Shown in pieces: positions 1,628 to 59,600 of a stretch of DNA of 64,000 bases (position 1 is its first letter; every line of letters starts with the position of its first letter). The translations under genes were made by a program, and so were the position numbers. The stretch is taken from positions 58,900,001 to 58,964,000 of the forward strand of contig OX597815.1 of NCBI GenBank assembly GCA_951406725.2, written 5' to 3'. The notes beneath the pieces are model-generated. The model worked only from the letters and a program-made list of their open reading frames with translations, was not told where the DNA came from and ran no database searches. The stretch comes from Octopus vulgaris (lineage: Eukaryota).

Positions 1628-2980
1628 ACCTTACTAGTGCATCTTATCATTTGTTGCTGCTTATGAGCCAGGAACTATACTAATTAGATATTAAAAAATA
1701 AATTAATTATTATGAAATTCCTCATCACTGGTGATAGAAACTGTGTTTAGTGTAATGCTATCCAATACAACTGAATTTGTTCTGAGGTTGTGTACTAGAA
1801 AGACTTACAAAAATTTGAATTCAGCAAGAGTCTATTTAGTTACAGTTCTTATGTTACCTATTCATAAAAAAAATTGGAAGGAGCCAAGTGTTATCTTGGT
1901 TATGTAGACATGCAATTCTGATGAAGGGATATGATTTACTTGATTTATTCTCAAATATTTATACTAGTTGTTAACATCGCAAAATGAGTTTACTTCATAC
2001 ATTTTATTTCCTTTTTCTTTTTTATTTATTAATGATCTGAAGATGAAGTGCAAGAAAGAGTGAAGGCCTGTTTAAATAAGTTTTATAGAAGTATAACTGC
2101 CCCACTAAGTCCCATGACATACATCCGCTGATGGGAAATAACATCATTAGGTGAGACTAAACGGTGAGACTAAACGGTCGTTTAGAAAAAGCGCGGGCTA
2201 AAACTACGCACCTTCACTAGTCAGTTAAGGTGAGACAGTGTCACGTGACAACTTGCTGGGGCTGCCTGCTGGAGCCTATGTGGCAGGTATTTAAAGAGAG
2301 AAATTTGACAAGACAGTCAGTCACCGGCTGACACTCACTGACGATACATCGAAGAGGCCAGGGAATAGAAGAAAGAAGACATGCACTCAACACCAGAGCT
2401 GAAGACACCGCCGAAAGGGGGGGGGGGGCACCACGTCAAAATGGTAGAGGAGTAGGGGCCGAAACCGGACATGGTTCCTCCTGATGATGTCTTGAGCTAA
2501 CTGAATCCTATAAAGGAGCTGTTGTGGTAGCAGACCACGAAACACGGTTGTAATTCCTATGTAAACCTATATTGCTTTCTAACATAGACTAAGGAAACAA
2601 GACACAAAAAAATTTTCATGACAAAATTTTAAATTGGACCAGTCAAAAAATCATGCATTAATTTTTTCCAAAACCAGTTATTGAAGAAGTAATTACTTAA
2701 ACAAATTTCTTCATAGCAAATATTAATTTCAGGTAGCTGTAAAGGTTATAGATGTTATTTATTTTATTATAAATAAAAAGAGAAAACAATATATTTTATT
2801 TACTAAATGGCATCTGCACAAATTTGAGGTTGATGCCCATCTGTTTCAACATCTGATCAAAAATATTTTAATGAAATTTTGACAATCAGTAATGATTACA
2901 TTTAGATTAAATCAGAAATAAATTTTTTAAAAAGTCATCATTCAAAAGTAGAACTGAACATGCCTATTGCTAAAATAGAG

Positions 2981-3669
2981 CTATAAAGGCTGGGAGTTAC
3001 ATAAAGTTCTTAATGTCATATCTTTATAATTAAACTGTGGAGTTTCCAGTGGAGTAAGTACTTCATCAACATAAGTTTGATACTCATTGGCAGTTGTTTT
3101 CTTGGATTTAATATCAAGCTTTTTCTCCAGGTTTTCAATTTTAAGACGTAACAGTTCATTTTCTTCTTGGTAACTTTCCAGACTTTTTTGTAAGGATTGG
3201 TAATTTTCCACTTCTTTTAATAGTAATAAAATATGCTTGCGGAGATCCTCATTTTGAATTTGCAGTTCTTCAATAACTTGCTTGTCATCTTTTGGCATTT
3301 TGGTCATAACAGGTTGTGCTGGAGCATGAATGCGAGAATTTATACAATCAGATAAAGTATCTAAGTTTTTAGCTGCATGAGACTGGTTTCGACTTACGAG
3401 ATACTGAATTAAAGAATCATTTTCTTCAATAGTACGATAAATAGTGACAATACGGGGTTCAAAATCAGCTTTTGGACTATTTGGTGTACTCTGAGGTAAT
3501 CCTGAAGTAGCTGAATGAGAAGGATCTGATTTCTTTAAATCTTCTTGCTGGGCATTCTTTTCTTTCCGTCGAATTATTTCTTGTTGTCGATTATGGTGAC
3601 AATGCTGTAGTTGGAGTGAATCTTTTGCTTGTTCCGAATTTACTTCAGACATAGCCTCTAATACACACT
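2981..3669 (-). CDS. NRBF2: Terminal coding exon of nuclear receptor-binding factor 2 (Atg38 homologue, PI3KC3-C1 autophagy subunit)
   Basis: ECVLEAMSEVNSEQAKDSLQLQHCHHNRQQEII resembles the end of the NRBF2 MIT domain (human AYLSEAMKLTQSEQAHLSLELQ, from memory). KMPKDDKQVIEEL...DLRKHI resembles its coiled coil, and LTPLETPQF the C-terminal motif. Acceptor TTATTTTGCAG ends at 3670 (phase 1); TAG stop at 2981-2983. Confidence 0.85.
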
Positions 3670-4282
3670 CTGCAAAATAAGCCATAAGGATAAATTCATA
3701 AGTAAAAAACATTGATATGATTGACAGAAAGGTAAATAAATATATATGGACATGGATGTAGTTAGGACTTTAATCTTACTGAATTGCATAAATTATTTTC
3801 TATCATAAATTGCAATACAATAAAGCACTCTGAGGTAGTTTTAAACAAAACTGTGTAAGAGATATTTAATTAATATATATTTAGTGTAATAACAACATCA
3901 CCATCAGTCTTCTCGTCTTCCTCTTACTCTCCCCCTTCTCCTCTTATTCTAGGTTTCTCACTTACTACCATGATAACCCACTCCACTCTCTCTCACACAA
4001 CGCTGAACTTAACATTAAATTTTTAACATCTTAGATAAACACTTTACCCTGTCCCACCACCTTATGCAATACCAATTCTTCACTTTAAGAAACCTACAAT
4101 CTAAAAAGAATTAGCAATTGAACATCTTAGTAACACCACATTATACAAAAAAGTGTACATCACACCTAGTCAGCTTGGGATTACTATTAACACTAACTGG
4201 ACCAACATTTTTCACAACAGAAAGTTCTCTAAGAAGACTAAACTTAATTTCGCAACAAAAAATATTTCCCTCCCCTCTTTTT

Positions 4283-4940
4283 ATCATCATCATCATCACC
4301 ACCATCTTTTAACGTCTGCTTTCCATGCTGGCATGGGTTGGAGGACTGGTAAGCTAGGAGGCTGCACCAGGCTCCAATGTGATCTGGCAAGGTTTCTACA
4401 GCTGGATACCCTTCCTAATGCCATCCACTTCAAGAGTGTAGTGGGTGCTTTTTACATGCCACTGGCACAGGGGTCAGTCAGGCAGCATTGGCATCAACCA
4501 TGCTTAAATGGTGCTTTTTACGTGCCATTGACATGGGAACTAGTTAGGCGACACTGGCATTGACCATGCTCAAATGCTGCTTTTTATGTGCCACCAGTAC
4601 GGGAGCCAGTCAGGTGGCACTTGCATCGACCACACTCAAATGGTGCTTTTTACATGTCACTAGCATAGGTGCAGTCAGGCGGCATTGGCATCGGCCACAA
4701 CTATAATTTCATTTGACTCAACAGCATATTGCTTAACGATTGAAGGGTACTTTTCAACAGATCAGTTATGTGACACTGGCATTGGCCACAGGTTCGATCT
4801 CACTTAGCTTGCTGGGTCCTCTCAAGCACAGCATATTTCCAAAGGTTGTGCTTCACCACCTCACCCCATGTCTTCCTGGATCTACCTCTTCCACAGGTGG
4901 CCTCCAATGATAGGGTATGACACTTCTTCACACAGCTGTC
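4283..4940 (-). mobile_element. RTE LINE 3' end (ORF tail, 3' UTR with ~57-bp internal repeats, (GAT)n tail)
   Basis: (CAT)n at the left end, repeated GGTGCTTTTTACGTGCCA units, and degenerate GRGRSRKTW-type coding sequence at the right end. Confidence 0.8.
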
Positions 4941-5039
4941 CATACAGACTCATAAACCTAGGCCCAAACTTAAAATCAGACCTATAGTCTCAGGAATTGA
5001 TGGTCTTTATAAATTTTTTGGCTTCTAAACTCCTCGAAC

Positions 5040-5683
5040 CTTTACTCTATCCCTAATTAGTTGGGCTATGGACCTCTCCATGACCTTCATTACCTGCAGC
5101 TGTCTTACCAGAAATATAGCATCAATGGTGCAAACCCAAACTGCATCTCATCTAAACTGACTCTCTCCCTAATTAGTTAAGCTATGACTCTCTCCGTGAC
5201 CTTCATTACCTGATCCAACAACTTGACACCTTTGTAATTATAATACACACTCTGCAAAATAAGCCTTAAGTGTCACCTTTACCTGTGTAGCAGTTGACTA
5301 TTATGCTGCTACACCAGTCATTGGGTATGACTCCTTCATATATCACCTGGTTAACTATATGGGTAACTAGGCTATAGCCGACACTGCCAGATATTTTGAG
5401 CATCTCTGCAGTAATTCCTGATGGGCCGGGGGCTTTTCCTGTCTTCATACTCTTAATTGCCTTATCTACCAAGGTACTGTCAACTCGGATAGCTGGTCCC
5501 TCTGTTGGGTCGACATTCAGCAGACTCTCTATCTCCCATTCATTTTCTTTATTGAGCAACCTTTCATAGTGGCATCTCCAAACCTCTCTCTTTGCAGCCT
5601 CGTTTAGTGCAAGTGAACCATCATCCATGCAGACACATTTCTCTCCTATAACATCACGATTCTCTCTCACACACTGTCTTGAA
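5040..5683 (-). mobile_element. RTE LINE internal fragment (N-terminal RT region)
   Basis: ORF 5266-5670 (KAIKSMKTGKAPGPSGITAEMLK...IPNDWCSSIIV) belongs to the same family as 58174-58770. Confidence 0.85.
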
Positions 5684-5685
5684 AC

Positions 5686-7190
5686 ACCTCAAAATGTTTA
5701 CAATTGGAATGTGTTATTGTTCCAGTTCAATACTCTGATTGGGCAGCTCTCATTGTACCAGTGATGAAGCAGGATGGCTCAGTGCGCATTTGCAGAGATT
5801 ATAAACTTACAGTCAACCGGTCAACTGTTTTAGACAAGCACTTGTTACTTAAAATGGAAGAAATGTATGCAACTCTGCCTGGAGGCCAAAAGTTCACAAA
5901 AATCGATCTCAGTCATGCATATTCCCAGATGCTTATTCTTGTGCTTGCACTACAATTGCTACCCATATTGCGTTGTTTCAATTTACTAGATTACCATTTG
6001 GAATTAATACAGCCCCAGGAATTTTTCAATGCATTATCAACAACATTGTTAAAGATGTACCATGGGCTTGTGCATACCTAGATGATTTACTAATCACCGA
6101 GCATTCTGATGATGAACATCTTCATTACATTATCTATCATACTTGCTCATCTTCACAAAAGCGGATTAAAACTGAAGAACAAATGTGAGTTTTTTTTTTT
6201 ATTCTGTTTGTTATCTTGGTTACCAACTTAATAAAGATGGTTTGCAAATTAGGAGTGATTAAAGTGCAGTCTATTTTAAATGCACCAGAACTTAAAAACA
6301 ATAGTGAGTTAAGATCATATGTAAGAATGTTATCACATTATTGTCGTTTTTTACTAAATATTTCAACTGTGTTGATATCCTTATATTCCTCATTGCGTAG
6401 AGATTCCTTTGGGGGTGGAATGTTACTTACTAGTTCATCTGTACTTGTGCATTATGATCTGCATGAAACATTTAATGCTAGGTGTGGCCCTTTGTCATCG
6501 AATGAACGGCAGTACTGTTTGTCCTGTAGCTTTTGCCTCATGTACTCTGTTACCAGCTGAAAAGAACTATTCTCAGTTGGACAAAGAAGCACTTGCAATT
6601 TTATTTTGTGTCAAGTAATTCCATTAATATATTTCGTCGTTTTGAAATTTATACTGATCATAAACCTTTGATTGCACTACTTGGAGAAGAGTGGAGTATT
6701 CAGCAAGTGTGCTAACCAAGAATGCAGAGATGGGCTTTGATGTTAAATGCTTATAGTTATAGTATGTATTACGTTCCTGGGACTAAGAATGTTACTGCTG
6801 ATGTATTGAGTCGTTTACGCTTGACTTCTTTGTTACACAAAATTGAACAACCAGCAGAAGTGGTACACATGATGCAACATTTTAGCAGCACACCTATCTG
6901 AGAATAGGATATACTTTGACTAACAGACAAGAATCAAATACTGTCCAGTATCAAACATTATCTTTTAAGAGGGTGGCCATCCAAAACAAGTGTAGAATTA
7001 AAACCATTTTTACAGCGTAAAGATGAACTGAGTCTGCACAAGGGTTGTATATTTTGGGGTCTTCGTATAATTGTACCCCTTAAATTAAAACAATAATTGC
7101 TTAATGAACTGCATGATACTCATCCAGGCATAAATCAAATGAAAGCATTATCTTGAAGCTACTGTTGGTGGCCCAATTTGGATGCTGAGA
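5686..7190 (+). mobile_element. Degenerate Ty3/Gypsy pol fragment (RT, RNase H, start of integrase)
   Basis: Motifs SDWAALIVPVMKQDGSVRICRDYK, RLPFG, YLDD, PVAFAS...EKNYSQLDKEALAI, YTDHKPL and LHDTHPG...WWPNLD. Many stops and frameshifts. Confidence 0.9.
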
Positions 7191-9130
7191 ATCGTAATGT
7201 CACAGGAGAGAAATGTGTCCACATGGATGATGGTTCACTTGCATTAAACGAGGCTGCAAAGAGAGAGGTTTGGAGATGCCACTATGAAAGGTTGCTAAAT
7301 AAAGAGAATGAATGAGAGATAGAGAGTCTGCCGAATGCTGACCCAACATAGAGACCAGCTATCTGAATTGACAGTACCTTGGTAGATACAGCAATTAATG
7401 GTATGACGACAGGGTAAGCCCTCGGTCCATCAGGAATCACCGCAGCAATGGTCATAATATCTGGCAGTGTCAACTATAGTCTAGTCACCCGTATAGTTAA
7501 CCAGGTAATACACAAAGGAGTCATACCCAATGACTGGTGTAGCAACACCATAGTCAACTGCAACAAAGGTACAGGTGACGTTTTCGATACAAATAATTAC
7601 AGAGTTATCAAGTTGTTGGATCAGGTAATGAAGGTCACGTAGAGGGTCATAGCCAAACTAATTAGGGAGAGAGTCAGTCTAGATGAAATGCAGTTTGGGT
7701 TCGTGCCAGGAAAAAGCACCGTTGATGCTATATTTCTGGTAAGACATCTGCAGCCAAAGATAAACCTCTGTACCTGGCATTCGGTGACATGGAGAAAGCC
7801 TCTGACAGGGTCGCCTGATCACTTATCTGGTGGTCAATGAGGAAACTAGGGATAGATGAATGGTTAGTGAGAGCTGTGCAAGCCATGTACAGGGATGCTG
7901 TCAGTAAGGTGAGATTGGCAATGAGTACAGTGAAGATTTCTGGGTAAGGGTAGGAGCCCACCAAGGATCAGTCTTCAGCCCCCTCTTATTCCTCCAAGCA
8001 ATAACAGAGGAATTCAAGACAGGATGCCCCTGGGAGCTCCTCTATGCTGATGACCTTGCTCTAATAGCTGAGTCACTATCAGAATTAGAGGAAAAATTTC
8101 AGGTCTGGAAGCAAGGATTAGAATCAAAGGGCTTTAGAGTCAACCTAGCTAAAACCAAAGTCTTAATAAATAGGAAGGCAGACAAACCACAAATCCCTCC
8201 AGGTAGATGGCCCTGCTCAATCTGTAGAAAAGGTGTAAGTAGAAACTCCATAAGATGTACCCAGTGTAAGCTATGGACACATAAGAAGAGCAGCAATAAC
8301 AAAGGAAGGTTAACTGGGAAGATAGTTTGTTTCTTTTACATGGCAAATGCTCAGGTGCAATAAACACTGAAAATGTGCTGAGAACAGCTTCTGTCACATT
8401 CCAAGAAGAAAAACTACAAGTAGTTGATAGCTTCTATTACCTAGGCGACCAAGTCAGTAGCAGGGGTGAATGTTCTGAAAGTGTAGCTCCTAGAATAAGA
8501 ATAGCCTGGGCAAAGTTCAGAGAGCTCCTCCCTCTGCTGGTGAAAGGGACTATATGATGCATGTGTATGAATAGCCATGCCACATAGCTGAGAACATGCG
8601 TAAGCTTGCAAGGAATGAAACCAGCATGCTCTGCAGGATGTGTAATGTCAGTGTGCATACTCAACAGAGTGTAAGGAACTTGAGAGAAAAGTTGGACCTA
8701 AGAAGCATCAGATGTGGTGCGCATGAGGACAACTGCACTGGTATTGTCGTGCTGTGAATGAATGAGGACAGCTGCATGAAAAAGTGTCACACCCTAGCAA
8801 TTGAGATAACCTGTGGAAGAGGTAGACCCAGGAAGACCTGGGATGAGGTGGTGAAGCATGACCATCAAACATTAGGCCATACCAAGGCAATGACTAGTGA
8901 CCAAGACCTTTGGAGAAATGCTGTGCTTGAGAAGACCTGACAAGCCAAGTGAGACCATAACCCATGGCCTATGCCATTGGGTGTAACCAGCCCACTTATG
9001 AGTACTCTTCATTCATTGGACAATAAACTTTGCTTGTGAAGACCTGTTGAGGCAAGTGAAATTAAAATCAAAATCGCTGACATGAGTGATGACAGTACCG
9101 CCTGATTAGCGCCCATGCTGGTGGCATGTA
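7188..9130 (+). mobile_element. 5'-truncated, degenerate RTE LINE (RT, Cys-rich finger, C-terminus, partial 3' UTR)
   Basis: YADD (CTCTATGCTGATGAC at ~8040), GRWPCSICRKG and GRGRPRKTWDEVVKHD. Collinear with 58230-60200. Confidence 0.9.
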
Positions 9131-9134
9131 AACA

Positions 9135-9372
9135 CACCAGCATTGGTTGTCAAACGATGTTGGGGGGACAAACATAGAGACACATATATGCACATGTATA
9201 CATACATATAAGACAGGCTTCTTTCAGTTTCCGTCTTCCAAATCCACTCACAAGGCTTTGGTCAGCCCGAGGCTATAGCAGAAGACACTTGCATAAAGTG
9301 CCATGCAGTTGGACTGAACCTGGAATCATGTGGTTGGTAAGCAAGCTACTCACCTCACAAACAGTCCTGCAC
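9135..9372 (-). mobile_element. tRNA-derived SINE, 5' portion
   Basis: Same family as 34996-35400 and 51725-52135 (CAAATCCACTCACAAGGCTTTGGTC...GGACTGAACC). Confidence 0.8.
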
Positions 9373-9782: not shown

Positions 9783-10185
9783 ATGAAATAAATGAAAAAC
9801 ACGACACAAAGGATGTTGTGGACATAGTACTTCGAGCTTTATAGAACAACTTATTCTTACATCAGGATGTATAAATCGACATAACAGATAGTTCAAAAGC
9901 CCTCTGCAGCCACATGCAACTGTTACTCCAAGACTTGTATCACATTACTTGTAAGGTTTGAGAAAAACATTTGGTATTGTTTATAATAGTAGGTAAACTG
10001 AGTATGTATTTTCAAACCTTTCATAATGTGATACAAGTCTTTCGTGTAGCAATTGCATGCTAAGTTGAAGGAGGACATAATCTGTTATGTCGATTATGCA
10101 TTCATGTAAGAATAAGTTGTTCTATAAAGCTCGTCAAACATATGTATCGCAACATCCTTTGTGTCGTGTATTTTTTATATCATTA
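9783..10185. repeat. Imperfect ~400-bp fold-back element between (TA)n tracts
   Basis: ACACGACACAAAGGATGTTG pairs with CAACATCCTTTGTGTCGTGT. CGAGCTTTATAGAACAACTTATTCTTACAT pairs with ATGTAAGAATAAGTTGTTCTATAAAGCTCG. AAGACTTGTATCACATTA pairs with TAATGTGATACAAGTCTT. Confidence 0.85.
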
Positions 10186-10189
10186 TATT

Positions 10190-10236
<47 letters not shown>

Positions 10237-10250
10237 TATATACATACATA

Positions 10251-10284
<34 letters not shown>

Positions 10285-10344
10285 CATATATATACATACA
10301 TACCATATATATATATACATACATATATATATATATATACATAC

Positions 10345-10375
<31 letters not shown>

Positions 10376-10400
10376 CATACACATATATATGTATATATAC

Positions 10401-10433
<33 letters not shown>

Positions 10434-10434
10434 C

Positions 10435-10507
<73 letters not shown>

Positions 10508-10530
10508 TATACATATATATATATACATAC

Positions 10531-10561
<31 letters not shown>

Positions 10562-10983
10562 CACATATATATATATATATATACATACATACATATATAT
10601 ATATATATACATACATACATATATATATATATACATACGTACATACATATCACATACATATACATATATATATACATATATATATACATATATATATATA
10701 CAATACATACATACATATATATATATATACATATACATATATATACATATACATATAATATACATATACATATATATATATACATATACATATATATACA
10801 TATACATATATATATATATACATACATATATATATATACATATACATATATACATACACACACACACACACACATATACATATATATATATACGTATATA
10901 CATATACATATATATATATATACATATACATACATATATATATATATATACGTATACATATATATATATATATATACATACGT

Positions 10984-11014
<31 letters not shown>

Positions 11015-11275
11015 TACATACATATATATATATATATATATATACATACGTACATACATATATATATATATATATATATCATACGTACATATATATATAT
11101 ATATATATATACATACGTACACATATACACACATATATATATACATATACATACATATATACATACATATATATATATATACATACGTACATACATATAT
11201 ATATATACATACGTACATACATACATATATATATATATATATACGTACATACATATATATATATATATACATACG

Positions 11276-11332
<57 letters not shown>

Positions 11333-11353
11333 GTATGTATATATCTATATATA
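10186..11353. repeat. (TA)n/(TACA)n compound microsatellite
   Basis: Directly visible. Confidence 0.97.
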
Positions 11354-11870
11354 CTCTTTTACTCTTTTACTTGTTTCAGCCATCCGGCTGAGGCCATGCT
11401 GGGGCACCGCCCTTGTTGCTACCCTCTCTAAGTCCAGTTTGCCGTGGCTGGCCACTGATCTAAGAGAGAGTTTGTAGCTGCTGCCCTTAGGTTACCTTTG
11501 TACCTTGCAGTGGGTTCATCTGGGATCCCGGAAAGCAGCTTGTCTAGATGTTTTTTGAAAATGTCCACATCCGCATCATGTAGATCTCTTAGTTTTCTTG
11601 GCAGTTTGTTGAACAGCTGAGGGCCTCTGAACCCCAGGCTATTACAGTATCTGCTTCTTACCCTGGATGTGGAAGACGGGACCTTTGGCACCACACAGTG
11701 ACGTCCTGTACGGGGATTGGAACAGCTCTCAATTCCAAAATTTGGTGCTAGTCCCTCCAGGATTTTCCATATGTATATCACTGCATATCTCTCTCGTCTT
11801 CGTTCCAAGGAGTACAAATTGAGTTCCCTAAGCCTCTCCCAATAGTTCTTTTCTTTCATGGTGGAAATCC
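11354..11870 (-). mobile_element. CR1-group LINE 3' fragment (family B) with (AAAAGAGT)n tail
   Basis: [31 protein letters not shown]...GPQLFNKLP...PDEP...RAAATNSL, homologous to the ORF2 C-terminus at 26300-26741. Confidence 0.92.
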
Positions 11871-17771
<5,901 letters not shown>

Positions 17772-17774
<3 letters not shown>

Positions 17775-18139
17775 CTCTTTTACTTGTTTCAGCCAGCCAT
17801 CCGGCTGAGGCCATGCTGGGGCACCGCCCTTGTTGCTACCCTCTCTAAGTCCAGTTTGCCGTGGCTGGCCACTGATCTAAGAGAGAGTTTGTAGCTGCTG
17901 CCCTTAGGTTACCTTCGTACCTTGCAGTGGGTTCATCTGGGATCCCGGAAAGCAGCTTGTCTAGATGTTTTTTGAAAATGTCCACATCCGCATCATGTAG
18001 ATCTCTTAGTTTTCTTGGCAGTTTGTTGAACAGCTGAGGGCCCCTGAACCCCAGGCTATTACAGTATCTGCTCCTTACCCTGGATGTGGAAGACGGGACC
18101 TTTGGCACCACACAGTGACGTCCTGTACGGGGATTGGAA
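17772..18139 (-). mobile_element. Second, near-identical CR1-group family B 3' fragment, cut by the gap
   Basis: Almost base-for-base the same as 11359-11722; ends at the N run. Confidence 0.9.
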
Positions 18140-18239
18140 NNNNNNNNNNNNNNNNNNNNNNNNNNNNNNNNNNNNNNNNNNNNNNNNNNNNNNNNNNNNN
18201 NNNNNNNNNNNNNNNNNNNNNNNNNNNNNNNNNNNNNNN
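18140..18239. other. Assembly gap (100 N)
   Basis: Run of N. Confidence 1.
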
Positions 18240-18301
<62 letters not shown>

Positions 18302-18373
18302 ATATATATGGATATATATATATCCATCAGCATTGCCCAAATGATGTTGGCATCACCTATATATATATATATA

Positions 18374-18476
<103 letters not shown>

Positions 18477-18490
18477 TATATATAAATATA

Positions 18491-18715
18491 TGAGGTAATC
18501 ATATATGGTAATCATATTTGTAGATATTTATTTATATATTACATTTTTTACATATATATCATATCATTTGGATTAGCGTTGTTCCCATTCTAGTGGGTTT
18601 TGAAAACCCACTAGAATGGGAGCAAGCGCTAATCCAAATGATATGATATATATGTAAAAAATGTAATATATAAATAAATATCTACAAATATGAACCATCT
18701 GATCTGATTACCTCA
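18491..18715. repeat. ~225-bp near-perfect palindrome centred on 18602
   Basis: ...CCCATTCTAGTGGGTTTT-G-AAAACCCACTAGAATGGG..., with arms extending to TCATATTTGTAGATATTTA / TAAATATCTACAAATATGA and TGAGGTAATCA / TGATTACCTCA. Confidence 0.92.
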
Positions 18716-18758
18716 ATTTTTCTAATATATAATACCTGTACATCATCTCCAAACCTTC

Positions 18759-23544
<4,786 letters not shown>

Positions 23545-26500
23545 CCAAAGCGGAGGTACGCAGATGTTGTGCACGCCACAAACAGCCAACATGATGTTGT
23601 CGAAAGAGCAGCTGCTGAGCAACAATCTTTTTTGTGCATGGCACAAAAGATTGTACAGCAGCTGACCTGGCTTCATCAAACCCAAGCCCGCAGGTGGGAC
23701 TACCCACTATATACCAGACCACCACAGCAAACAGACACAGGATGGACACCGCCGGCGACAACAACGTACACCTCACCTCGATACTCCTACTGAACATCAG
23801 AGGACTGCAAACACTCAGTAACAGGACAAAGATCCCGTTCCTGAGAGACTTTGTTGCATGCAATCAAGCCTTATGCATAGCACTTACAGAAACGCACCTG
23901 AAACCGGACATAGCAGATGCGGAGTTACACATACCACAGTATGCTGTACTACGGACCGACAGGAAAGAAAGGAGTCATGGAGGTGTTGCTATGTACATCC
24001 GTGAGGACCTCACACCCCAGGTCCTCTTGTCATACTCAAACTCGGTGTGTGACACACTAATTGTACATATTAGGCAACTTGATGTAGTTGTGTGTGCTAC
24101 ATATCGCCCTCCAGATGCCCCAAGCCATGTGGGCAAGTTCGAAGACTGCCTTATAAAAATAGAAGAAATTCTAACCACATTAGAACAACACATAGGTGTG
24201 CTTCTTATGGGAGACTTCAATCTGCCCAATGTCAGATGGCCCGAGGGCCTTTCTCTCCCAGGAATGACAAGATGTGAACGAGGACAGGCGAGGTCCCTCC
24301 TGAACCTCATCAACACCCTGTACATGGAGCAGGTAATACTCCAACCAACCAGGGCAGGTAACACACTGGATCTCTGCTTCACAAATGACATGGATCTCAT
24401 CCATAATGTGAAAGTGACACCGACACTACTCTCGGATCACAACATGATAGAGCTGACCATGTATGGGCCAAAAGAGAGCACGGACATGCAGCCTACAAGA
24501 AACCCTCAAAATCTTTCCAGCTTGAACTACCATAAGGCAAACTGGAAACAAATTGAGAAAGAGATCCTCAAACAAAACTGGCCTGAATGTCTCTCCTTGC
24601 CAGACATCGACGTGAAACTTCAACAATTCATGTCTGTAATGCAAGCCATATGCTACAAATGTGTCCCAGAGAGAAAGGCCACTGTACACAAGAACAAAAT
24701 CCCCAGAGAGAGGAAAATTTTAATGAGACGGCGTACGAAATTTTCAAATCGCCTAAACAAACAGATTGAAAGCAGTGAAAAGTCCCACCTAAAAATAAAA
24801 CTGTTGGAAATCGAAAAATGTCTGCAACTCTCCCATGAAAAGGAAAGAGCAGACAAAGAAGCCTGGGCTATAGAAAACATAAAATCTAACCCCAGAGCTT
24901 TCTACAGGTATGCCATAGAAACAGCTACAGTGCACTGTAGAATAGGGCCACTCCTAGAAAAGGATGGCACACTTACAGGAAAACCAATGAGGGTAAGTGA
25001 AATACTGAATGAGCAATTCAAGAGTGTTTTCACTCCACCCCTTGGGCATCTCCAAATCACCAATCCAACTGACATTTTTACCACTGCAGATATAAAATCA
25101 GAGGCGGCGACGATAGATTACATCGATATAAAGGAAGACGATGTAACCAAGGCTATAGATGAAATGAAAACAGACTCAGCTACTGGCCCCGATGGATTCC
25201 CGGCAATCCTCCTAAAAGCATGTAAGAGAGTCCTAGCAAGACCACTGCAGTTCCTCTTTCAGAGCTTCCTTGCAGCTGGCAAACTTCCAGGAAAACTGAA
25301 GGAAGGTAAAATATGCCCCATTCATAAAGGAGGTAGCAGAGCGGAAGCCAAGAACTATAGACCTATCTCTCTGACCTCACACATCAGCAAGGTCATGGAA
25401 CGAATAGTCAGAAGGAAGCTGATCACCTTCCTTGAAGAGAATGACTTGCTGCCCGACACCCAACATGGTTTCCGACCAGGGAGAAGCTGTTTAACTCAGA
25501 TCCTACAACACTATGACTGGGTGCTGAAACGGCTGCTCAACCACTCAAATGTGGAAGTGATATATCTCGACTTTGCAAAGGCCTTTGATAAAGTCGATCA
25601 TGGAATGATATGTCACAAACTGCGTGATCTCAACATAGTTGGAAAACTGGGAGAATGGCTTCATGACTTTCTGAAGGATAGAAGTCAGGTGGTAGTAGCC
25701 AATGGGGCCACCTCCATTAACACACAAATAGTGAGCGGTGTTCCGCAGGGCACTGTTCTGGGACCACTACTGTTCATAATGGCCCTCTCAGACATGCCCT
25801 CAGCCACGCAGAGAGCCACGATCACAAGTTATGCAGATGATACAAAAGTTTCACAGGCAATACAGAACCCTGAGGACACTAAACACCTGCAATGTGAGCT
25901 GGACGAAATATACAAGTGGGCTGAAAAGAATAGCATGCAGTTCAATGCTGGAAAGTTTCAAGCTTTATACTATCAGCATGCAAAACTGAATGCAATACCC
26001 AATGAATACACTGGACCCGGAGGGATTGCAATCCCAGAGGCACAATCAGTGCGTGACCTGGGTATTCACATGAGTGATGACGCGACCTTTCATGTACATG
26101 TTGCTAAACTGACAATGAAATGTAGACGGCTGGCTGGCTGGATTCTTAGAACCTTTAGAACAAGAGAACAAGAAACCATGATGGTCCTCTGGAAGACACT
26201 TGTCCTAAGCCACTTTGACTATTGCTCTCAGCTATGGTCACCATCCAGTGTCAAGTTGATCACAGAACTTGAGGCGATCCAACGAAGCTACACAAAGAAG
26301 ATAGCCTCTATGCAGAATGTAAGCTACTGGGAAAGACTCAAGAGATTAAAATTATATTCCCTGGAGCGTAGGCGGGAAAGATATGCCATAATATACATCT
26401 GGAAGATCCTGGAGGGAAGTGTCCTGAACTTTGGCATCGAGAGTTACGCAAATGCCAGAACTGGGCGCCACTGCGTGGTGCCTAGGACTCCAAACCTGCC

Positions 26501-26831
26501 ATCAAGATGTAGGACAAGATTCTGTGATAGCCTGGGCTTCCGAGGCCCACAGCTCTTCAATATCCTCCCGAAGAACCTGAGAGACCTGCATGGGGTGGAT
26601 ACAGATGTCTTTAAAATGAAGCTGGATCTCTTCCTGTCAGGTGTCCCAGATGAACCAACTTCACGGCAGGAGGGGCAGATGAGGGCAGCTGCATCGAACT
26701 CTCTCATGCACCAAATAGCAGTTGCTAGAAAGCCTCCATGAAGTGAAACCAGGTAGCAACACCAAATGGCGGTGCCCCAGCATGGCCACAGCTCATAGGC
26801 TGAAACTAGAATCAATCAATCAATCAATCAA
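23545..26831 (+). mobile_element. CR1-group LINE (family A), 5'-truncated in ORF1, ORF2 intact, (ATCA)n tail
   Basis: ORF1 tail ending at 23793, APE-RT ORF2, short 3' UTR and AATCAATCAATC tail. (TA)n on both sides. Confidence 0.93.
23742..26741 (+). CDS. LINE ORF2: apurinic-like endonuclease plus reverse transcriptase
   Basis: EN motifs LLNIRGL, LTETHL, GGVAMY, YRPP, MGDFN, LDL and SDH. RT motifs [39 protein letters not shown] and YADD. First ATG at 23742; the frame is open from 23619. Confidence 0.95.
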
Positions 26832-27823: not shown

Positions 27824-29422
27824 TCATCATCATCATCATCATCATCGTTTAACGTCCGCTTTCCGCGCTAGCACGGGTTGGACGGTTTGACCGGGTCTGG
27901 GAAGCCAGGGGCCACACCAGGCTCCAGTCTGAATCTGGCAGAGTTTCTACGGCTGGATGCCCTTCCTAACGCCAACCACTCCGTGAGTGGATTGGGTGCT
28001 TTTTACGTGCCACCTGCACAGGGGCCGGAGGGTCCGGCATCGTCACGATCGGTTCGAGCATTTTAACGTGTCAGCGGCACGGGGGCAACGAGGTCCGGGG
28101 TACTTTGGGGATCCAGGGTACTTTGGGGATCCGGGGTACTTAGAATGAGTAGGGGGTATGTGGAATTGCTGCAGAAAGCAGCCCGGGTCTTTGTAGTCAC
28201 AGCATTTATCGTCACTGAGTAAGGAAGGGTTGGTGTAGGTTCCTAAGAAATAAAGACATTCGTTATCGTCACTGAGTAACGTTATTAGGTAGAGGAAAGA
28301 ATACAGATATTCTAGAGTTGAGTTGGGGAGGGGGGGTCCAGTTGAGGTGGGTAATATAGGGGAGCAACCAGTGGGGAAGGTTGGAGTAAGGAGGAATGAT
28401 GGCAGGAAGGGTTGGTGTAGGTTCCTAAGAAATAAAAACGTAGGATATTACGAGGCGGGAGGGTGCTAAAGGGGGATAGTCGGAATGAAGCAGTGTCAGG
28501 AGGAAGCGTAAGATCGGTGGGCAGTTGATGAGCTATGGCGCTAGCAGCTTGTCTTTTCACAGTGAAAGCATATGAGGAGAAGGGGTAGTGGGGGGAGGAG
28601 GAGGGAGTAGGGCGTACCCGGTGTAGATGAGTAAGGCGTATCCGGTGTAGATGGTGAGGACAGGGTATACTGGTATTGGTGGTGGGGGGTGAGGAACAGT
28701 GTTCACCAGTATTGGTGGTGTTGGCGGTGAGAACAGTGTTCACCGGTATTGGTGGTGGGGGTGAGAACAGTGTTCATCGGTATTGGTGGTGGGGGTGGGG
28801 GGCGGGGCGCACCGCCAATGGCTGGAAGATGGGAAGAGATGGGATTACGGCTTGAGGTAGCCTAGCCTAAGGTTAAATTTTGTAGAGAGAGAGATAGAAA
28901 GATAAATCAAGTTATGGCGAAGGCTTTAAAAGTAGCCTTAAAAGGTTAAATTTTCGTAACAATGTATGAATAAACGTAGTAACAACGAATAGAAATATTA
29001 AGATAAATTTTTAAAGAACTTGCTGCGGACATCGATCGGGAGTTGAAATTGAAGAAGTAAGTTAGTTGAATTGGGAATTTAAATTGTAGAATCGTAATGG
29101 TAAGAGGAGGAAAAAAAGACCGCCAATGGCTGAAAGATGGGAAGAGATGGGATTACGGCTTGAGGTAGCCTAGCCTAAGGTTAAATTTTGTAGAGAGAGA
29201 GATAGAAAGATAAATCAAGTTATGGCGAAGGCTTGAAAGTAGCCTTAAAAGGTTAAATTTTCGTAACAATGTATGAATAAACGTAGTAACAACGAATAGA
29301 AATATTAAGATAAATTTTTAAAGAACTTGCTGCGGACATCGATCGGGAGTTGAAATTGAAGAAGTAAGTTAGTTGAATTGGGAATTTAAATTGTAGAATC
29401 GTAATGGTAAGAGGAGGAAAAA
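27824..29422 (-). mobile_element. Composite non-autonomous RTE-derived element 1 (two 308-bp 5' monomers, C-rich body, RTE 3' UTR, (GAT)n tail)
   Basis: (CAT)n plus RTE 3' UTR at 27824-28085. Near-identical units start at 28811 and 29119 (ACCGCCAATGGCTG). (TA)n on both sides. Confidence 0.75.
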
Positions 29423-30580: not shown

Positions 30581-33500
30581 AGCCCGCAGGTGGGACTACC
30601 CACTATATACCAGACCACCACAGCAAACAGACACAGGATGGACACCGCCGGCAACAACGTACACCTCACCTCGATACTCCTACTGAACATCAGAGGACTG
30701 CAAACACTCAGTAACAGGACAAAGATCCCGTTCCTGAGAGACTTTGTTGCATGCAATCAAGCCTTATGCATAGCACTTACAGAAACGCACCTGAAACCGG
30801 ACATAGCAGATGCGGAGTTACACATACCACAGTATGCTGTACTACGGACCGACCGGAAAGAAAGGAGTCATGGAGGTGTTGCTATGTACATCCGTAAGGA
30901 CCTCACACCCCAGGTCCTCTTGTCATAGTCAAACTCGGTTTGTGACACACTAATTGTACATATTAGGCAACTTGATGTAGTTGTGTGTGCTACATATCGC
31001 CCTCCAGATGCCCCAAGTCATGTGGGCAAGTTCGAAGACTGCCTTATAAAAATAGAAGAAATTCTAACCACATTAGAACAACACATAGGTGTGCTTCTTA
31101 TGGGAGACTTCAATCTGCCCAATGTCAGATGGCCCGAGGGCCTTTCTCTCCCAGGAATGACAAGATGTGAACGAGGACAGGCAAAGTCCCTCCTGAACCT
31201 CATCAACACCCTGTACATGGAGCAGGTAATACTCCAACCAACCAGGGCAGGTAACACACTGGATCTCTGCTTCACAAACGACATGGATCTCATCCATAAT
31301 GTGAAAGTGACACCGACACTACTCTCGGATCACAACATGATAGAGCTGACCATGTACGGGCCAAAAGAGAGCACAGACATGCAGCCTACAAGAAACCCTC
31401 AAAATCTTTCCAGCTTGAACTACCATAAGGCAAACTGGAAACAAATTGAGAAAGAGATCCTCAAACAAAACTGGCCTAAATGTCTCTCCTCGCCAGACAT
31501 CGACGTGAAACTTCAACAATTCATGTCTGTAATGCAAGCCATATGCTACAAATGTGTCCCAGAGAGAAAGGCCACTGTACACAAGAACAAAATCCCCAGA
31601 GAGAGGAAAATTTTAATGAGACGGCGTACGAAATTTTCAAATGCCTAAACAAACAGATTGAAAGCAGTGAAAAGTCTCGCCTAAAAATAAAACTTGGAAA
31701 TCGAAAAATGTCTGCAACTCTCCCATGAAAAAGAAAGAGCAGACAAAGAAGCCTGGGCTATAGAAAACATAAAATCTAACCCCGGAGCTTTCTACAGGTA
31801 TGCCAAAGAAACAGCTACGGTGCACTGTAGAATAGGGCCACTCCTCGAAAAGGATGGCACACTTACAGGAAAACCAATGAGGGTAAGTGAAATACTGAAT
31901 GAGCAATTCAAGAGTGTTTTCACTCCACCCCTTGGGCATCTCCAAATCACCAATCCAACTGACTTTTTTACCACTGCAGATATAAAATCAGAGGCGGCGA
32001 CGATAGATTACATCGATATAAAGGAAGACGATGTAACCAAGGCTATAGATTAAATGAAAACAGACTCAGCTACTGGCCCCGATGGATTCCCGGCAATCCT
32101 CCTAAAAGCATGTAAGAGAGTCCTAGCAAGACCACTGCAGTTCCTCTTTCAGAGCTTCCTTGCAGCTGGCAAACTTCCAGGAAAACTGAAGGAAGGTAAA
32201 ATATGCCCCATTCATAAAGGAGGTAGCAGAGCAGAAGCCAAGAACTATAGACCTATCTCTCTGACCTCACACATCAGCAAGGTCATGGAACGAATAGTCA
32301 GAAGGAAGCTGATCACCTTCCTTGAAGAGAATGACTTGCTGCCCGACACCCAACATGGTTTCCGACCAGGGAGAAGCTGTTTAACTCAGCTCCTACAACA
32401 CTATGACTGGGTGCTGAAACGGCTGCTCAACCACTCAAATGTGGAAGTGATATATCTCGACTTTGCAAAGGCCTTTGATAAAGTCGATCATGGAATGATA
32501 TGTCACAAACTGCGTGATCTCAACATAGTTGGAAAACTGGGAGAATGGCTTCATGACTTTCTGAAGGATAGAAGTCAGGTGGTAGTAGCCAATGGGGCCA
32601 CCTCCATTAACACACAAATAGTGAGCGGTGTTCCGCAGGGCACTGTTCTGGGACCACTACTGTTCATAATGGCCCTCTCAGACATGCCCTCAGCCACGCA
32701 GAGAGCCACGATCACAAGTTATGCAGATGATACAAAAGTTTCACAGGCAATACAGAACCCTGAGGACACTAAACACCTGCAATGTGAGCTGGACGAAATA
32801 TACAAGTGGGCTGAAAAGAATAGCATGCAGTTCAATGCTGGAAAGTTTCAAGCTTTATACTATCAGCATGCAAAACTGAATGCAATACCCAATGAATACA
32901 CTGGACCCGGAGGGATTGCAATCCCAGAGGCACAATCAGTGCGTGACCTGGGTATTCACATGAGTGATGACGCGACCTTTCATGTACATGTTGCTAAACT
33001 GACAATGAAATGTAGACGGCTGGCTGGATGGATTCTTAGAACCTTTAGAACAAGAGAACAAGAAACCATGATGGTCCTCTGGAAGACACTTGTCCTAAGC
33101 CACTTTGACTATTGCTCTCAGCTATGGTCACCATCCAGTGTCAAGTTGATCACAGAACTTGAGGCGATCCAACGAAGCTACACAAAGAAGATAGCCTCTA
33201 TGCAGAATGTAAGCTACTGGGAAAGACTCAAGAGATTAAAATTATATTCCCTGGAGCGTAGGCGGGAAAGATATGCCATAATATACATCTGGAAGATCCT
33301 GGAGGGAAGTGTCCTGAACTTTGGCATCGAGAGTTACGCAAATGCCAGAACTGGGCGCACTGCGTGGTGCCTAGGACTCCAAACCTGCCATCAAGATGTA
33401 GGACAAAATACTGTGATAGCCTGGGCTTCCGAGGCCCACAGCTCTTCAATATCCTCCCGAAGAACCTGAGAGACCTGCATGGGGTGGATACAGATGTCTT

Positions 33501-33714
33501 TAAAATGAAGCTGGATCTCTTCCTGTCAGGTGTCCCAGATGAACCAACTTCACGGCAGGAGGGGCAGATGAGGGCAGCTGCATCGAACTCTCTCATGCAC
33601 CAAATAGCAGCTGCTAGAAAGCCTCCATGAAGTGAAACCAAGTAGCAACACAAAATGGCGGTGCCCCAGCATGGCCACAGCTCATAAGCTGAAACTAGAA
33701 TCAATCAATCAATC
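30581..33714 (+). mobile_element. Second CR1-group family A LINE, disabled
   Basis: Nearly identical to 23685-26831, but with TAG at 30926, frameshifts near 31643, 31693 and 33357, and TAA at 32051. (ATCA)n tail. Confidence 0.93.
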
Positions 33715-46658: not shown

Positions 46659-46717
46659 TTTTATACTTGTGTATGGGTGTATGTATGTATATATATGTAT
46701 ATATATATATATATATA

Positions 46718-47890
46718 TATGTTAATAAAATATATGCATATATATAAACATATATGTACGTACCTACCTCTACATGTACATATACACGCATATATGTGTA
46801 CAGGACACCAAAAAGACGTCGAACACATAGAGAGACGAAAAACATAGACACAAACCAAGGAACAAGACAGGCAAAAAAAGGAGATACAGGACAATAAGCA
46901 CAACGAAAAATCCCCTTCTTCAGTCGCTAAAGTTTCATCTACTAAACGTTTCGAAGGATAAAAGCGAGACGTATACTTCGAATGAAAAATTCCTTCCTGC
47001 GAAAAGCAAATCAATTAAAATTCTGAGATCTTGTCGCAGAGGGGTAAAAAAAGCAAGACGGTAACGACAGTACAAACATATAAACAGTAAAAAATATATA
47101 TATAAACAGTGGAAAAATAAATATATAACAGTGAGAGACAGGACAAGGAGAACAAGATAAGAAGGGCTGTTAACGCCAGACGAAAAAAAGTATTGCAAAC
47201 GCTGGATTATAGTGGACGACGAGAGAGGAAGATGTCGACCAGTGGCCTTAGAAGGCGGGCGAGAAAGGACGGGATAGCAGTTACGACGGAAGTACGTCGC
47301 AGATGGACGACGGGAATGGGGGAGGAGGAGCAAGAGGAAGAGAGAGAAGAAGGGGAATGGTGCGAGGAGACCATGAAGAACAGTGAGGGGGAGAGAGAGA
47401 GGAAGAGACAAGTTAAGTGAGGGAAAAAAGACGAAAAAGGGAATGGGAGAGAAAGAAAGAAAGATGCAGAGTCGCGTGAGAGTTAATATCAAGGCGAACT
47501 TGATAAACAGAACAATCTTACTTAATAGGGTGCGTGCGTTTAGTCGTATAATATGTTAATAAAATATATGCATATATATAAACATATATGTACGTACCTA
47601 CCTCTACATGTACATATACACGCATATATGTGTACAGGACACCAAAAAGACGTCGAACACATAGAGAGACGAAAAACATAGACACAAACCAAGGAACAAG
47701 ACAGGCAAAAAAAGGAGATACAGGACAATAAGCACAACGAAAAATCCCCTTCTTCAGTCGCTAAAGTTTCATCTACTAAACGTTTCGAAGGATAAAAGCG
47801 AGACGTATACTTCGAATGAAAAATTCCTTCCTGCGAAAAGCAAATCAATTAAAATTCTGAGATCTTGTCGCAGAGGGGTAAAAAAAGCAA
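46718..47890. repeat. Element with two essentially identical ~340-bp direct repeats around a ~500-bp purine-rich core
   Basis: 46718-47056 matches 47551-47890 (TGTTAATAAAATATATGC...GGGGTAAAAAAAGCAA); lies within (TA/TG)n. Confidence 0.88.
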
Positions 47891-56624: not shown

Positions 56625-59600
56625 TCCCTCTCTCTCTCTCTCTCTCTATTTCAGTCTGTCTCTCTCTCCCTCTCTCGATTACCACTCACCTCGCCAAGAC
56701 TTCCGCCAACACCACCACACATAAACCAGCGCATGCAGAAGATGCTTGCCTCTAAACTTCCTAGTTCGAGATGCGCCCACCCTACCACCCCCTCCACCTG
56801 TACCGGAAGTTCCTATCATTCCTATCCTCTGTCATACTTCATTGTCTCCCATGTATACTTCTAAAGGCTTTATGCCCTTCCCACCCCTACTTAAGGCTAT
56901 CTCCTATGTAAGGTAGTGATCATATAGTGCAAAAATATGATAGTGTAGTGTATGCAGGTTGTACTGAAGGCTATTGTATTGTTTGTTTATGAATTCTGCC
57001 AAATGTGAGCTTTCTTTTCAGGTACATGAAGCTACTGTCCCCCATCCCAGGGTCTCACGGGCCCATACCTCCCACACCCTCAGGGTTGACACTCTCTCAA
57101 CATTGGCACACTGAAAGGTAAGTCTGGTGAGATTGTTGAGATGCTTGACCGGAGATGTGTCGATATGTGCTACATCCAAGAAGTAAGGTGGAGAGGAGTT
57201 TCTGCTAGGTTCCTCACAGGCAAAGAACAAAAGTACAAGATTTTCTGGGTGGAGAACACTGTCGGGGTTGGGAGTGTGGGTATACTTCTTGCTGAGAAAT
57301 GGGTAGATAAGGTAATCAAGGTAGTCAGAGTATGCTACAGAATACTTAAGATTAGATTAGTGCTTCATCATAGGTTAGCAACCATTATCTTGGCCTATGC
57401 CTCTCAGCCAGGGCTACCCGATGGACAGAAAGACCGATTCTATGACACCCTCTTGCAGACTACCGCGTTGACGAATGACAGGGACCTTCTGTTTGTGGCT
57501 GGTGACTTCAATGGACATGTTGGACAACATACAGGGGGCTTCCATGGCGTACATGGGGGCTACGGTTATGGTTCCTGCAACGGGAAGGGAACCAGGCTGC
57601 TGGAGTTTTGCAATGCAAATGATCTTATGGTTTGCAAAACTAACTTCAGGAAACCTGCCAGTTACCTAGTCACCTACTGATCTGGCAGACACAATAGTCA
57701 AATTGACTACATCCTCACCTGAAAAAGGGAAAGATGGCTGCTTATAAAAGCCAAAACCTTCCCAGGCGAAGAATGTACCCCACAACATAGACTGGTAGTT
57801 AGTGACTTTAGGATCCGGGCTAAGTGGATGCCCAGAAGACGACCAGCATGGAGGAGAAGCGTTTGGAAGCTTAAAGATCCTGCGAATGGACAGAGATTTA
57901 GAGACATATTACTCAAAGCCTTTGACAAAATAGAAGACAACTTGAGGTTTCTATGGGACAACCTGCTGAGAGCCACTGACCAGATCTGTGGATGGTGCAA
58001 AGTCCCCTCTCGACTCAAAATAACGTGGTTTTGGAACGATGTTGTAGACAGGGCTATTAGAGAAAAGAAACAGGCTTGGAAGAACGGTGGTAGCAGGGAA
58101 TTGTATCAGAATGCCAGAAGGGAAGCTAGGAGACAGCTTTATTTAGCCAGAGGGGAAGCAGGTAAGAAAAACTTTGCCAATGTTCTGCAGACTTGAGGTA
58201 TTTCCTGTTGCAAGACAGTGTGTGAGAGAGAATCCTGATGTTGTAGGAGAGAAATGTGTCCGCATGGATGATGGTTCTCTTGCACTAAATGAGGATGCAA
58301 AGAGAGAGGTTTGGAGACGCCACTATGAAAGGTTGCTGAATAAAGAAAATAAATGGGAGAAAGAGAGTCTGCCGAATGTCGACCCAACAGAGGGATCAGA
58401 TATCCAAGTTGAGAGTACCTTGGTAGATAAAGCAATTAAGAGTATGAAGACAGGGAAAGCCCCTGACCTATCAGGAATTACTGCAGAGATGCTCAAAATA
58501 TCTGGCAGTGTTGGCTATAGCCTAGTCACCCGTATAGTTAACCAGGTGATACATGAAGGAGTCATACTCAATGACTGGTGTAGCAGCATAATAGTCAACT
58601 GCTACAAAAGTAAAGGTGACGCTTTAGATACAAATAATTATAGAGGTATCAAGCTGTTGGATCAGGTAATGAAGGTCACAGAGAGGGTCATAGCTCAACT
58701 AATTAAGGAGAGAGTCAGTCTAGATGAGATGCAGTTTGGGTTCACACCATTGATGCTATATTTCTGGTAAGACAGCTGCAGGAGAAATACCTAGTCAAAG
58801 ATAAACCCCTGTACCTGGCTTTCATTGACATGGAGAAAGCCTTTGAGAGCTGTTGGTAGATGTTGTGGCCTATGAGAGGGGTGTAACCAGCCCACTTATA
58901 TAATGCTGTTGAGGCAAGTGAAATCCCTTATCTGGTGGTCATTGAGGAAACTAGGGGTAGATGAATGGTTAGTGAGAGCTGTGCAAGCCATGTACAGGGA
59001 CGCTGTCAGTAAGGTGTGAGTTGGCAACGAGTACAGTGAAGAATTCAGGGTAGAGGTAGGGGTCCACCAAGGTTTGGTCCTCAGCCACCTCCTATTCATC
59101 ATAGTCCTCTAGGCAATAACGGAGGAATTCAAGACAGTATGCCCCTGGGAGCTCCTCTATGCTGATGACCTTGCTCTAATTGCTGAGTCACTATCAGAAC
59201 TAGAGGAGAAGTTTCAAGTGTGGAAACAAGGATTAGAATCGAAGGGCCTTAGAGTCAACCTAACTAAAACCAAAATCCTAATAAGTAGGAAGGCAGGCAA
59301 ACCACAAATCCCTTCAGGTAGATGGCCCTTCTCAATCTGTAGAAAAGGTGTAGGTAGAAACTTTATAAGACATACCCAGTGTAAGCTATGGACACATAAG
59401 AGGTGCTGCAATATCAAAGGAAGGCTAACTGGGAAGATAGTTTTTGTATGTGGCAGATGCTCAGGAGCAATAAACACTGAAAATGCACAGAGAACAACTT
59501 CCGACACATTCCAGGGAGAAAAACTAGAAGTAGTTTATAGCTTCTGTTACCTAGGTAACCAAGTGAGTAGCAGGGGAGGGTGCGCTGAATGTGTAGCTGC

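What the first reader, a model, noticed from the sequence alone, without database searches (positions are those of the whole stretch)
5210..5265. Templated copy of the NRBF2 splice acceptor inside a LINE relic creates a candidate 42-nt poison exon
Seen: TAATACACACTCTGCAAAATAAGCC at 5241-5265 is identical to 3659-3683, which spans the NRBF2 3' splice site. It is in the same orientation and replaces a few bases of RTE sequence. On the minus strand it gives TTATTTTGCAG|AGTGTGTATTATAA...GGATCAG|GTAATG, a 42-nt segment (5251-5210) between a duplicated acceptor and a LINE-supplied donor. In the NRBF2 frame it reads E-C-V-L-stop. Inference: a decoy acceptor or NMD-triggering cassette exon 1.6 kb upstream of the real one.
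Basis: partly seen in the sequence, partly recalled or inferred. Interest (0 to 1): 0.7.

Follow-up and report, generated by a model that had tools for sequence, protein, structure and literature searches.

The report
Repair scar copying an octopus acceptor
In an octopus NRBF2 intron, 9 bases of a dead LINE are replaced by a 26-base copy of the gene's own splice acceptor 1.6 kb away; this is likely an ordinary DNA-repair scar, and the RNA contigs examined show the gene spliced without the proposed extra exon.

Summary
The duplicate is real: 5241-5265 equals 3659-3683 (29/30 to 5270), far beyond chance. Against two sister RTE copies, 9 nt of LINE are replaced by 26 nt, with 1-nt and 3-nt junction microhomology. 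The gene is Octopus NRBF2 and 3669-2740 is its terminal exon. The poison-exon reading is weak. Only 14 intronic bases were copied, so the decoy lacks the T-rich, AG-free upstream zone (38% vs 73% pyrimidine; upstream AG at -15 vs -100). By a crude score 111 equal or better pseudo-exons lie on this strand. The stop is 28 nt from what would be the last junction, short of the 50-55-nt rule. One RNA run shows direct splicing of the upstream exon to 3669 and a second fits it, though contigs drop rare isoforms. A sister RTE in the window carries a like scar (63 nt copied from 1.26 kb) with no splice site involved. The insertion was neither confirmed nor refuted in reads. Verdict: likely a neutral templated-insertion repair scar that happened to copy an acceptor.

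The parts
5241..5270 (-). Templated insertion: 26 nt (5241-5266) plus junction microhomology, copied from 3659-3688; replaces 9 nt of RTE
3659..3688 (-). Template: last 19 nt of the NRBF2 intron and first 11 nt of the terminal exon; real acceptor is AG|3669
2740..3669 (-). NRBF2 terminal exon: coding to TAG at 2983-2981, unspliced 3' UTR to about 2740, AATAAA at 2800 and 2768
   Evidence: (X4 record 9, X7 record 24)
5210..5251 (-). Proposed 42-nt pseudo-exon; TAA at exon positions 12-14, 28 nt before the donor; no inclusion seen
5094..5686 (-). Host RTE LINE relic, 5' piece (89.7% to the RTE at 58206-58782, with which it shares a 13-nt deletion)
4945..5096 (-). Second scar in the host relic: 53-nt repeat of 5160-5212 (87% identical; supplies a second CAG|GTAATG at 5094) plus about 100 nt with no match in the window, in place of about 1.1 kb of RTE
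   Evidence: (D8); spanned by X7 record 29 (4838-5157)
4283..4941 (-). 3' part and short-repeat tail of the RTE relic
58847..58925 (+). Control event in a sister RTE: about 10 nt lost, 16 nt filler with 8-10-nt local matches, then 63 nt copied exactly from 60126-60188, rejoined at ATC

Best explanation
The segment is a 26-base copy of DNA 1.58 kb away that replaces 9 bases of an RTE LINE relic, likely left by microhomology-primed template switching during repair of a germline break, and likely silent for splicing. Shown: the deletion-plus-insertion, the template, and the junction overlaps. On the + strand these are 1 nt (T) at the left and 3 nt (AAG, inside a 4-of-6 imperfect match) at the right. 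Inferred: a broken or stalled 3' end in the relic primed on the NRBF2 intron/exon boundary, copied about 26-30 nt, released and re-annealed to the other end through the new AAG overlap, losing 9 nt. The enzyme (Pol theta end joining versus MMBIR/FoSTeS-type switching) is not determined. That the template is a splice acceptor is inferred to be coincidence. The copy stops short of the branch-point and T-rich region, so the spliceosome is predicted to use it rarely at most.
For: Anatomy. A second event of the same build in the same window: sister RTE 58847-58925, 63 nt exact from 1,263 nt away, about 10 nt lost, 3-nt overlap, no splice site involved. Its exactness against a 4.3% private substitution rate (P=0.004 two-sided, 0.065 one-sided) points to copying from DNA after retrotransposition. 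Of 293 maximal exact pairs of 18 nt or more, 9 had non-homologous flanks and 4 of these are direct, 25 nt or longer and within 2 kb, in about 41 kb of non-microsatellite DNA. Weak decoy: pyrimidines at -40..-15 are 38% vs 73%; nearest upstream AG at -15 vs -100; 300 of 1,275 YAG sites on this strand match or beat it and 111 of them have a 7/9 or better donor within 30-300 nt (crude score, consensus recalled). RNA: direct splice in X4; the X4 depths in the two bins at the acceptor are explained by three contigs (implied depth 104.5; predicted 12.99, observed 13). Literature passages: priming microhomology shorter than resolving microhomology in templated insertions (PMC7165422); about 100 germline events of 25 bp or more per human genome, most junctions with at least 1 bp microhomology (PMC8421209 section 10).
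Against: Textbook Pol theta insertions are shorter and closer: first-round tracts rarely over 10 bp (PMC7165422) and templates mostly within about 20 bp of the break (PMC11541566, which searched only 500 bp). A 26-nt tract from 1.58 kb is atypical. For a single event, hitting the acceptor with 12 or more intronic bases has a prior of only about 0.1-0.4%, so coincidence rests on genome-wide numbers that I could not count (no genome held). The event cannot be dated: P(0 changes in 25 nt) is 0.52 at the host's private rate. The insertion was not seen in raw data, and contigs cannot exclude low-level inclusion. Only 2 RNA runs were laid, tissues unknown.
Confidence: 0.78

Rival explanations
1. RNA-templated patch: the 26 nt were reverse-transcribed from NRBF2 pre-mRNA (by RTE reverse transcriptase, during integration or at a later break) rather than copied from DNA; still neutral.
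For: The copy is in the sense orientation of both NRBF2 and the RTE. Class 2 templated sequence insertions (microdeletion, microhomology, no target-site duplication) are proposed to be RNA patches (PMC5110952 passages). The intron is transcribed: depth 6-7 in RNA runs.
Against: The copy crosses the intron/exon boundary with intron sequence, so spliced mRNA is excluded. A template 1.6 kb away in cis is expected for DNA repair and unnecessary for a diffusible RNA. The sister event looks post-integration. Orientation alone is a coin toss.
Confidence: 0.1
2. Functional or regularly used poison exon / decoy acceptor that tunes NRBF2 level.
For: A correct YAG with 11 upstream bases identical to the real acceptor, a 7/9 donor 42 nt on and an in-frame TAA. 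With inclusion the stop would sit 958 nt from the 3' end, so long-3'UTR NMD could act (PMC8339359 passages). The other donors at 5109 and 5094 (143- and 158-nt exons) would satisfy the 50-55-nt rule. NMD targets are depleted in steady-state RNA, so contigs could miss them.
Against: No inclusion in the contig rows shown for X4 and X7. AG-free zone of 11 nt vs 96 nt, no branch-like motif in range; an AG-exclusion zone linking branch point and acceptor is described as required (PMC8819188 passage). Stop 28 nt from the last junction. The donor is unmodified RTE sequence. It is one of 111 comparable pseudo-exons. No conservation evidence.
Confidence: 0.05
3. Assembly or polishing artefact, or a variant private to the sequenced animal.
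For: No listed read piece spans 5241-5270. The window has a 100-N gap and a 340-nt exact duplicate.
Against: The copy has a mismatch to its template and clean microhomology junctions inside an otherwise colinear RTE. Neighbouring junctions of the relic are recovered in independent runs: X7 record 29 spans 4838-5157, X1 record 8 spans 5658-5740.
Confidence: 0.07

Closest known systems
Templated insertions (TINS) of polymerase theta-mediated end joining
   Same: Small deletion plus insertion copied from flanking DNA in direct orientation, short overlap on one side and longer on the other (PMC7165422 and PMC11541566 passages).
   Different: Here one 26-nt tract from 1.58 kb; typical tracts are under 10 bp and within about 20 bp of the break. 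No genetic test of Pol theta dependence.
Germline MMBIR-type templated insertions (MMB-TI)
   Same: Insertion with replacement, 25 bp or longer, junction microhomology or microhomeology, about 100 per human genome (PMC8421209 section 10 part 1).
   Different: The classes described there centre on inverted templates and quasi-palindromes; I saw no template-distance distribution in the part read.
Class 2 templated sequence insertion polymorphisms (TSIP)
   Same: No target-site duplication, no poly(A), microdeletion and microhomology at junctions (PMC5110952 passages).
   Different: TSIP templates are distant genomic regions and are proposed to pass through RNA; here the template is local, and polymorphism is untested.
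Poison exons and TE-derived pseudoexons
   Same: Intronic segment flanked by AG and GT with an in-frame stop, partly TE-derived (PMC8819188 passages).
   Different: No inclusion seen, short AG-free zone, stop too close to the last junction for EJC-dependent NMD, no conservation shown.

Membership tests
Templated insertion (repair scar) | Inserted bases match another genomic site beyond chance | tested here: met
   25/25 and 29/30; expectation 2.6e-10
Templated insertion (repair scar) | Loss of recipient bases relative to the pre-insertion state | tested here: met
   9 nt missing versus 2 of 2 sister RTE copies covering the site
Templated insertion (repair scar) | Junction microhomology, no target-site duplication or poly(A) | tested here: met
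   1 nt and 3 nt (4 of 6 imperfect); none of the retroposition marks. Overlaps this short also arise by chance.
Templated insertion (repair scar) | Present in genomic DNA, not only in the assembly | tested here: inconclusive
   Tables cut and swamped by RTE copies; 0 matches in metagenome contigs, an unsuitable collection
Pol theta TINS | Short tract (mostly under 10 bp) from within tens of bases of the break | tested here: not met
   26 nt from 1,582 nt
Pol theta TINS | Dependence on POLQ | not testable with these tools
   Historical event
Poison exon | Included in transcripts | tested here: inconclusive
   Not seen in contigs of 2 RNA runs; direct splice seen in X4; rare forms are dropped and 255 of 270 joints were not shown
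Poison exon | In-frame premature stop | tested here: met
   TAA at exon positions 12-14
Poison exon | Stop more than 50-55 nt upstream of the last exon junction | tested here: not met
   28 nt; next exon is terminal and unspliced to 2740; rule, not established for cephalopods in what I read
Poison exon | Branch point linked to the acceptor by an AG-free zone | tested here: not met
   AG at -15; only yTnAy-like motif at -9 (motif recalled, no octopus-trained model)
Poison exon | Stabilised when NMD is blocked; conserved across species | not testable with these tools
   No such data reachable; no genome held

The most novel reading that the evidence does not exclude
A single repair event made a new regulatory exon by pasting a gene's own acceptor in front of a LINE-supplied donor, and it drains a share of octopus NRBF2 transcripts into decay or truncation. 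More boldly, kilobase-range templated insertions in octopus RTE relics draw their templates preferentially from sense-strand 3' splice sites of the host pre-mRNA, a recurrent route to new exons.
Probability: 0.05. Interest if true: 0.6.

Novelty: new member of a known kind. Interest (0 to 1): 0.13.

Why it matters
As most likely read it matters little: one more templated-insertion scar. The small point of note is that two of three RTE relics aligned here carry insertions copied from 1.3-1.6 kb on their 3' side, longer and farther than textbook Pol theta products, and that LINE relics with many sister copies make such scars easy to census in cephalopod genomes. If the exon were used and regulated, it would be a clean example of exon birth by acceptor copying rather than point mutation in an autophagy regulator.

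Tried and rejected
Chance match: rejected. The 25-mer as part of a dispersed repeat: only 2 copies in the window at up to 5 mismatches; genome-wide not checked, no genome is held. Spliced mRNA as template: rejected, the copy holds intron bases. Upstream NRBF2 exons in the window: tblastn of 6 N-termini found none, so the upstream donor and intron length (over 60 kb if the assembly is right) could not be examined. Read test of the insertion: 4 of 24 listed runs laid; bin 5168-5274 had summed depths of 3.2e5 and 3.3e5 in the DNA runs from other RTE copies; 15 of 270 joints, 24 of 975 loose ends and a small share of pieces were shown, none at 5241-5270, so this says nothing either way. Exact junction pattern in metagenome contigs: 0 matches, uninformative for an animal. 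Origin of the filler at about 4945-5043: no match in the window. Pfam on the RTE and Gypsy fragments: 0 families for both at E 0.01; their labels rest on the ORF translations and my recall of these families. Earlier scan findings: none by place or words. Paper searches listed nothing on this locus or on acceptor-copying insertions in cephalopods; these 5 searches are not an exhaustive test.

Full report
Observation. The 25-mer at 5241-5265 equals 3659-3683 in direct orientation, 1,582 nt apart, and extends to 29 of 30 (family D12). No third copy exists in the window at up to 5 mismatches on either strand. The chance expectation is 2.6e-10 for this word and about 9e-5 for any 25-mer pair. The 42-nt segment, its flanking CAG and CAG|GTAATG, and the E-C-V-L-stop reading are as described.

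The gene. The minus-strand frame from 3669 to the TAG at 2983-2981 hits Pfam NRBF2 and NRBF2_MIT, below the curated cut-offs because the N-terminus is missing. It clusters with Octopus bimaculoides NRBF2-like proteins and aligns with Argonauta and Sepia NRBF2. The 46 upstream residues are not encoded in the window. RNA contigs run unspliced from 3673 to about 2740, past the stop, with AATAAA at 2800 and 2768, so this is the terminal exon.

The host and the scar. The copy lies in an RTE LINE relic on the minus strand (family label from ORF translations and recall). Two sister copies in the window cover the site (7187+ and 58206+). Both have 9 nt where the host has 26 nt. On the + strand the left junction shares 1 nt with the template. 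The right junction shares AAG within a 6-nt stretch where RTE, template and host agree at 4 positions; the host's single mismatch to the template lies here. There is no target-site duplication or poly(A). Over 541 gap-free columns the host has 14 private substitutions (2.6%), too few to date the insertion (P=0.52 for 25 unchanged bases). The relic bears a second rearrangement: about 1.1 kb lost and replaced by a 53-nt repeat and about 100 nt of unknown origin.

Is it special? I listed all maximal exact pairs of 18 nt or more outside low-complexity DNA: 293, of which 9 had non-homologous flanks. Four of the 9 are direct, 25 nt or longer and within 2 kb: this one, 33 nt at 28222/28404, 340 nt at 46717/47551 and 63 nt at 58863/60126. 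The other five are 18-21-nt matches that I did not pursue. The 63-nt case sits in the sister RTE and has the same build: about 10 nt lost, a 16-nt filler with 8-10-nt local matches, an exact copy from 1,263 nt on the 3' side and a 3-nt overlap at the rejoin. Its exactness suggests copying well after retrotransposition (P=0.004 if both copies had drifted at 4.3%, 0.065 one-sided; rough, because private rates include lineage differences). No splice site is involved there. For one event the prior of covering the acceptor is about 0.1-0.4%, but at roughly one scar per 10-15 kb of complex DNA a genome of this size would hold many such hits. That extrapolation is my inference from one window.

Would it be spliced? 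Exact identity covers only 14 intronic bases. At -40..-15 the real acceptor is 73% pyrimidine and the decoy 38%. The nearest upstream AG starts at -100 versus -15, and the AG at -15 is made by the copy's one mismatch. yTnAy-like motifs lie at -34, -30, -22 and -16 of the real site; the decoy has only the shared one at -9 (motif recalled). An AG-free zone joining branch point and acceptor is described as required (PMC8819188, passages). The donor is a fair 7/9 match but is unmodified RTE sequence, present at 7622 and 58663 too. With a crude score, 300 of 1,275 YAG sites on this strand between 3670 and 64000 equal or beat the decoy and 111 have a 7/9 or better donor within 30-300 nt. No trained splice model was available.

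Would it trigger NMD? The stop ends 28 nt before the donor and the next exon is the last, so the 50-55-nt rule is not met (rule: PMC8339359 and PMC12277549, passages; shown for chordates, only suggested for a snail). Against my reading: the 958-nt tail could trigger EJC-independent decay, and the donors at 5109 and 5094 would meet the rule.

Sequencing runs. Of 24 runs listed I laid 4, all Logan contigs. X4 and X7 are flagged 'RNA?' by the tool and behave as RNA: depth 77-78 on the exon, 6-7 in the intron, none at 2600-2706. In X4 a contig leaves the stretch behind 3673 with 184 loose letters; read by eye in reverse they give EEALHCHKRA, matching the residues before AECVL in P0009 with one change. 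That is a direct splice without the cassette. The two depth bins at the acceptor fit three contigs (exon 77, intron 6.2, upstream branch 104.5; predicted 12.99, observed 13), leaving little room for a fourth. In X7 one 1,142-nt contig covers 2746-3673 at flat depth, is listed once and runs on for 206 letters that were not shown, which is weaker support. Limits: contigs drop rare forms, NMD targets are depleted, and 255 of 270 joints and 951 of 975 loose ends were not shown. The insertion itself was not resolved in any run because RTE copies swamp that bin; nearby junctions of the relic were recovered (X7 4838-5157, X1 5658-5740).

Mechanism and comparison. The build matches templated insertions from microhomology-primed synthesis. 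It is longer and farther than typical Pol theta products (PMC7165422 and PMC11541566, passages), closer in size to germline MMBIR-type insertions (PMC8421209, passages and section 10 part 1 of 2), and shares junction features with class 2 TSIPs, proposed to be RNA patches (PMC5110952, passages). I read no supplements; template-distance tables there could bear on how atypical 1.6 kb is. I commit to DNA template switching at a germline break, splicing-silent (0.78); RNA patch 0.10; artefact or private variant 0.07; functional poison exon 0.05.

Verdict.

Noticed in passing
window 58847-58925 and 60126-60188: Templated insertion in a sister RTE: 63 nt copied exactly from 1,263 nt downstream with a multi-piece filler; same side and orientation as the finding.
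   Followed up: partly
window 28222-28254 and 28404-28436: 33-nt exact direct copy 182 nt apart, the first flanked by a repeated 16-17-nt word; probably another templated insertion.
   Followed up: partly
window 5094-5686 (-), 5687-7186, 7187-9140 (+): Two RTE relics face head to head around a Gypsy-like pol fragment and are 5'-truncated within about 22 nt of the same RTE position; 88% inverted arms. The host is closer to the copy at 58206 than to its neighbour, so a simple inverted duplication does not explain it.
   Followed up: no
window 3670-3714: Two NCBI proteins identical to this exon (P0001, P0011) start at in-frame ATGs in the intron, i.e. single-exon models; RNA contigs show a spliced upstream exon, so these N-termini are likely annotation errors.
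   Followed up: partly
window 3670-64000: The upstream NRBF2 exons are absent from the window, implying an intron over 60 kb filled with LINEs and (AT)n arrays, including a 13-kb array at 10184-23544 with a 100-N gap.
   Followed up: no
window 46717-47056 and 47551-47890: 340-nt exact direct duplicate 834 nt apart; recent duplication or assembly overlap.
   Followed up: no
window 23619-26741 and 30581-33630: Two near-identical LINE copies with endonuclease and reverse transcriptase frames; the first has an uninterrupted 1,040-codon frame, so it is likely young.
   Followed up: no
window 5124-5131 and about 58750: A 13-nt deletion shared by two RTE relics 53 kb apart: a subfamily mark or a recurrent deletion.
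   Followed up: no
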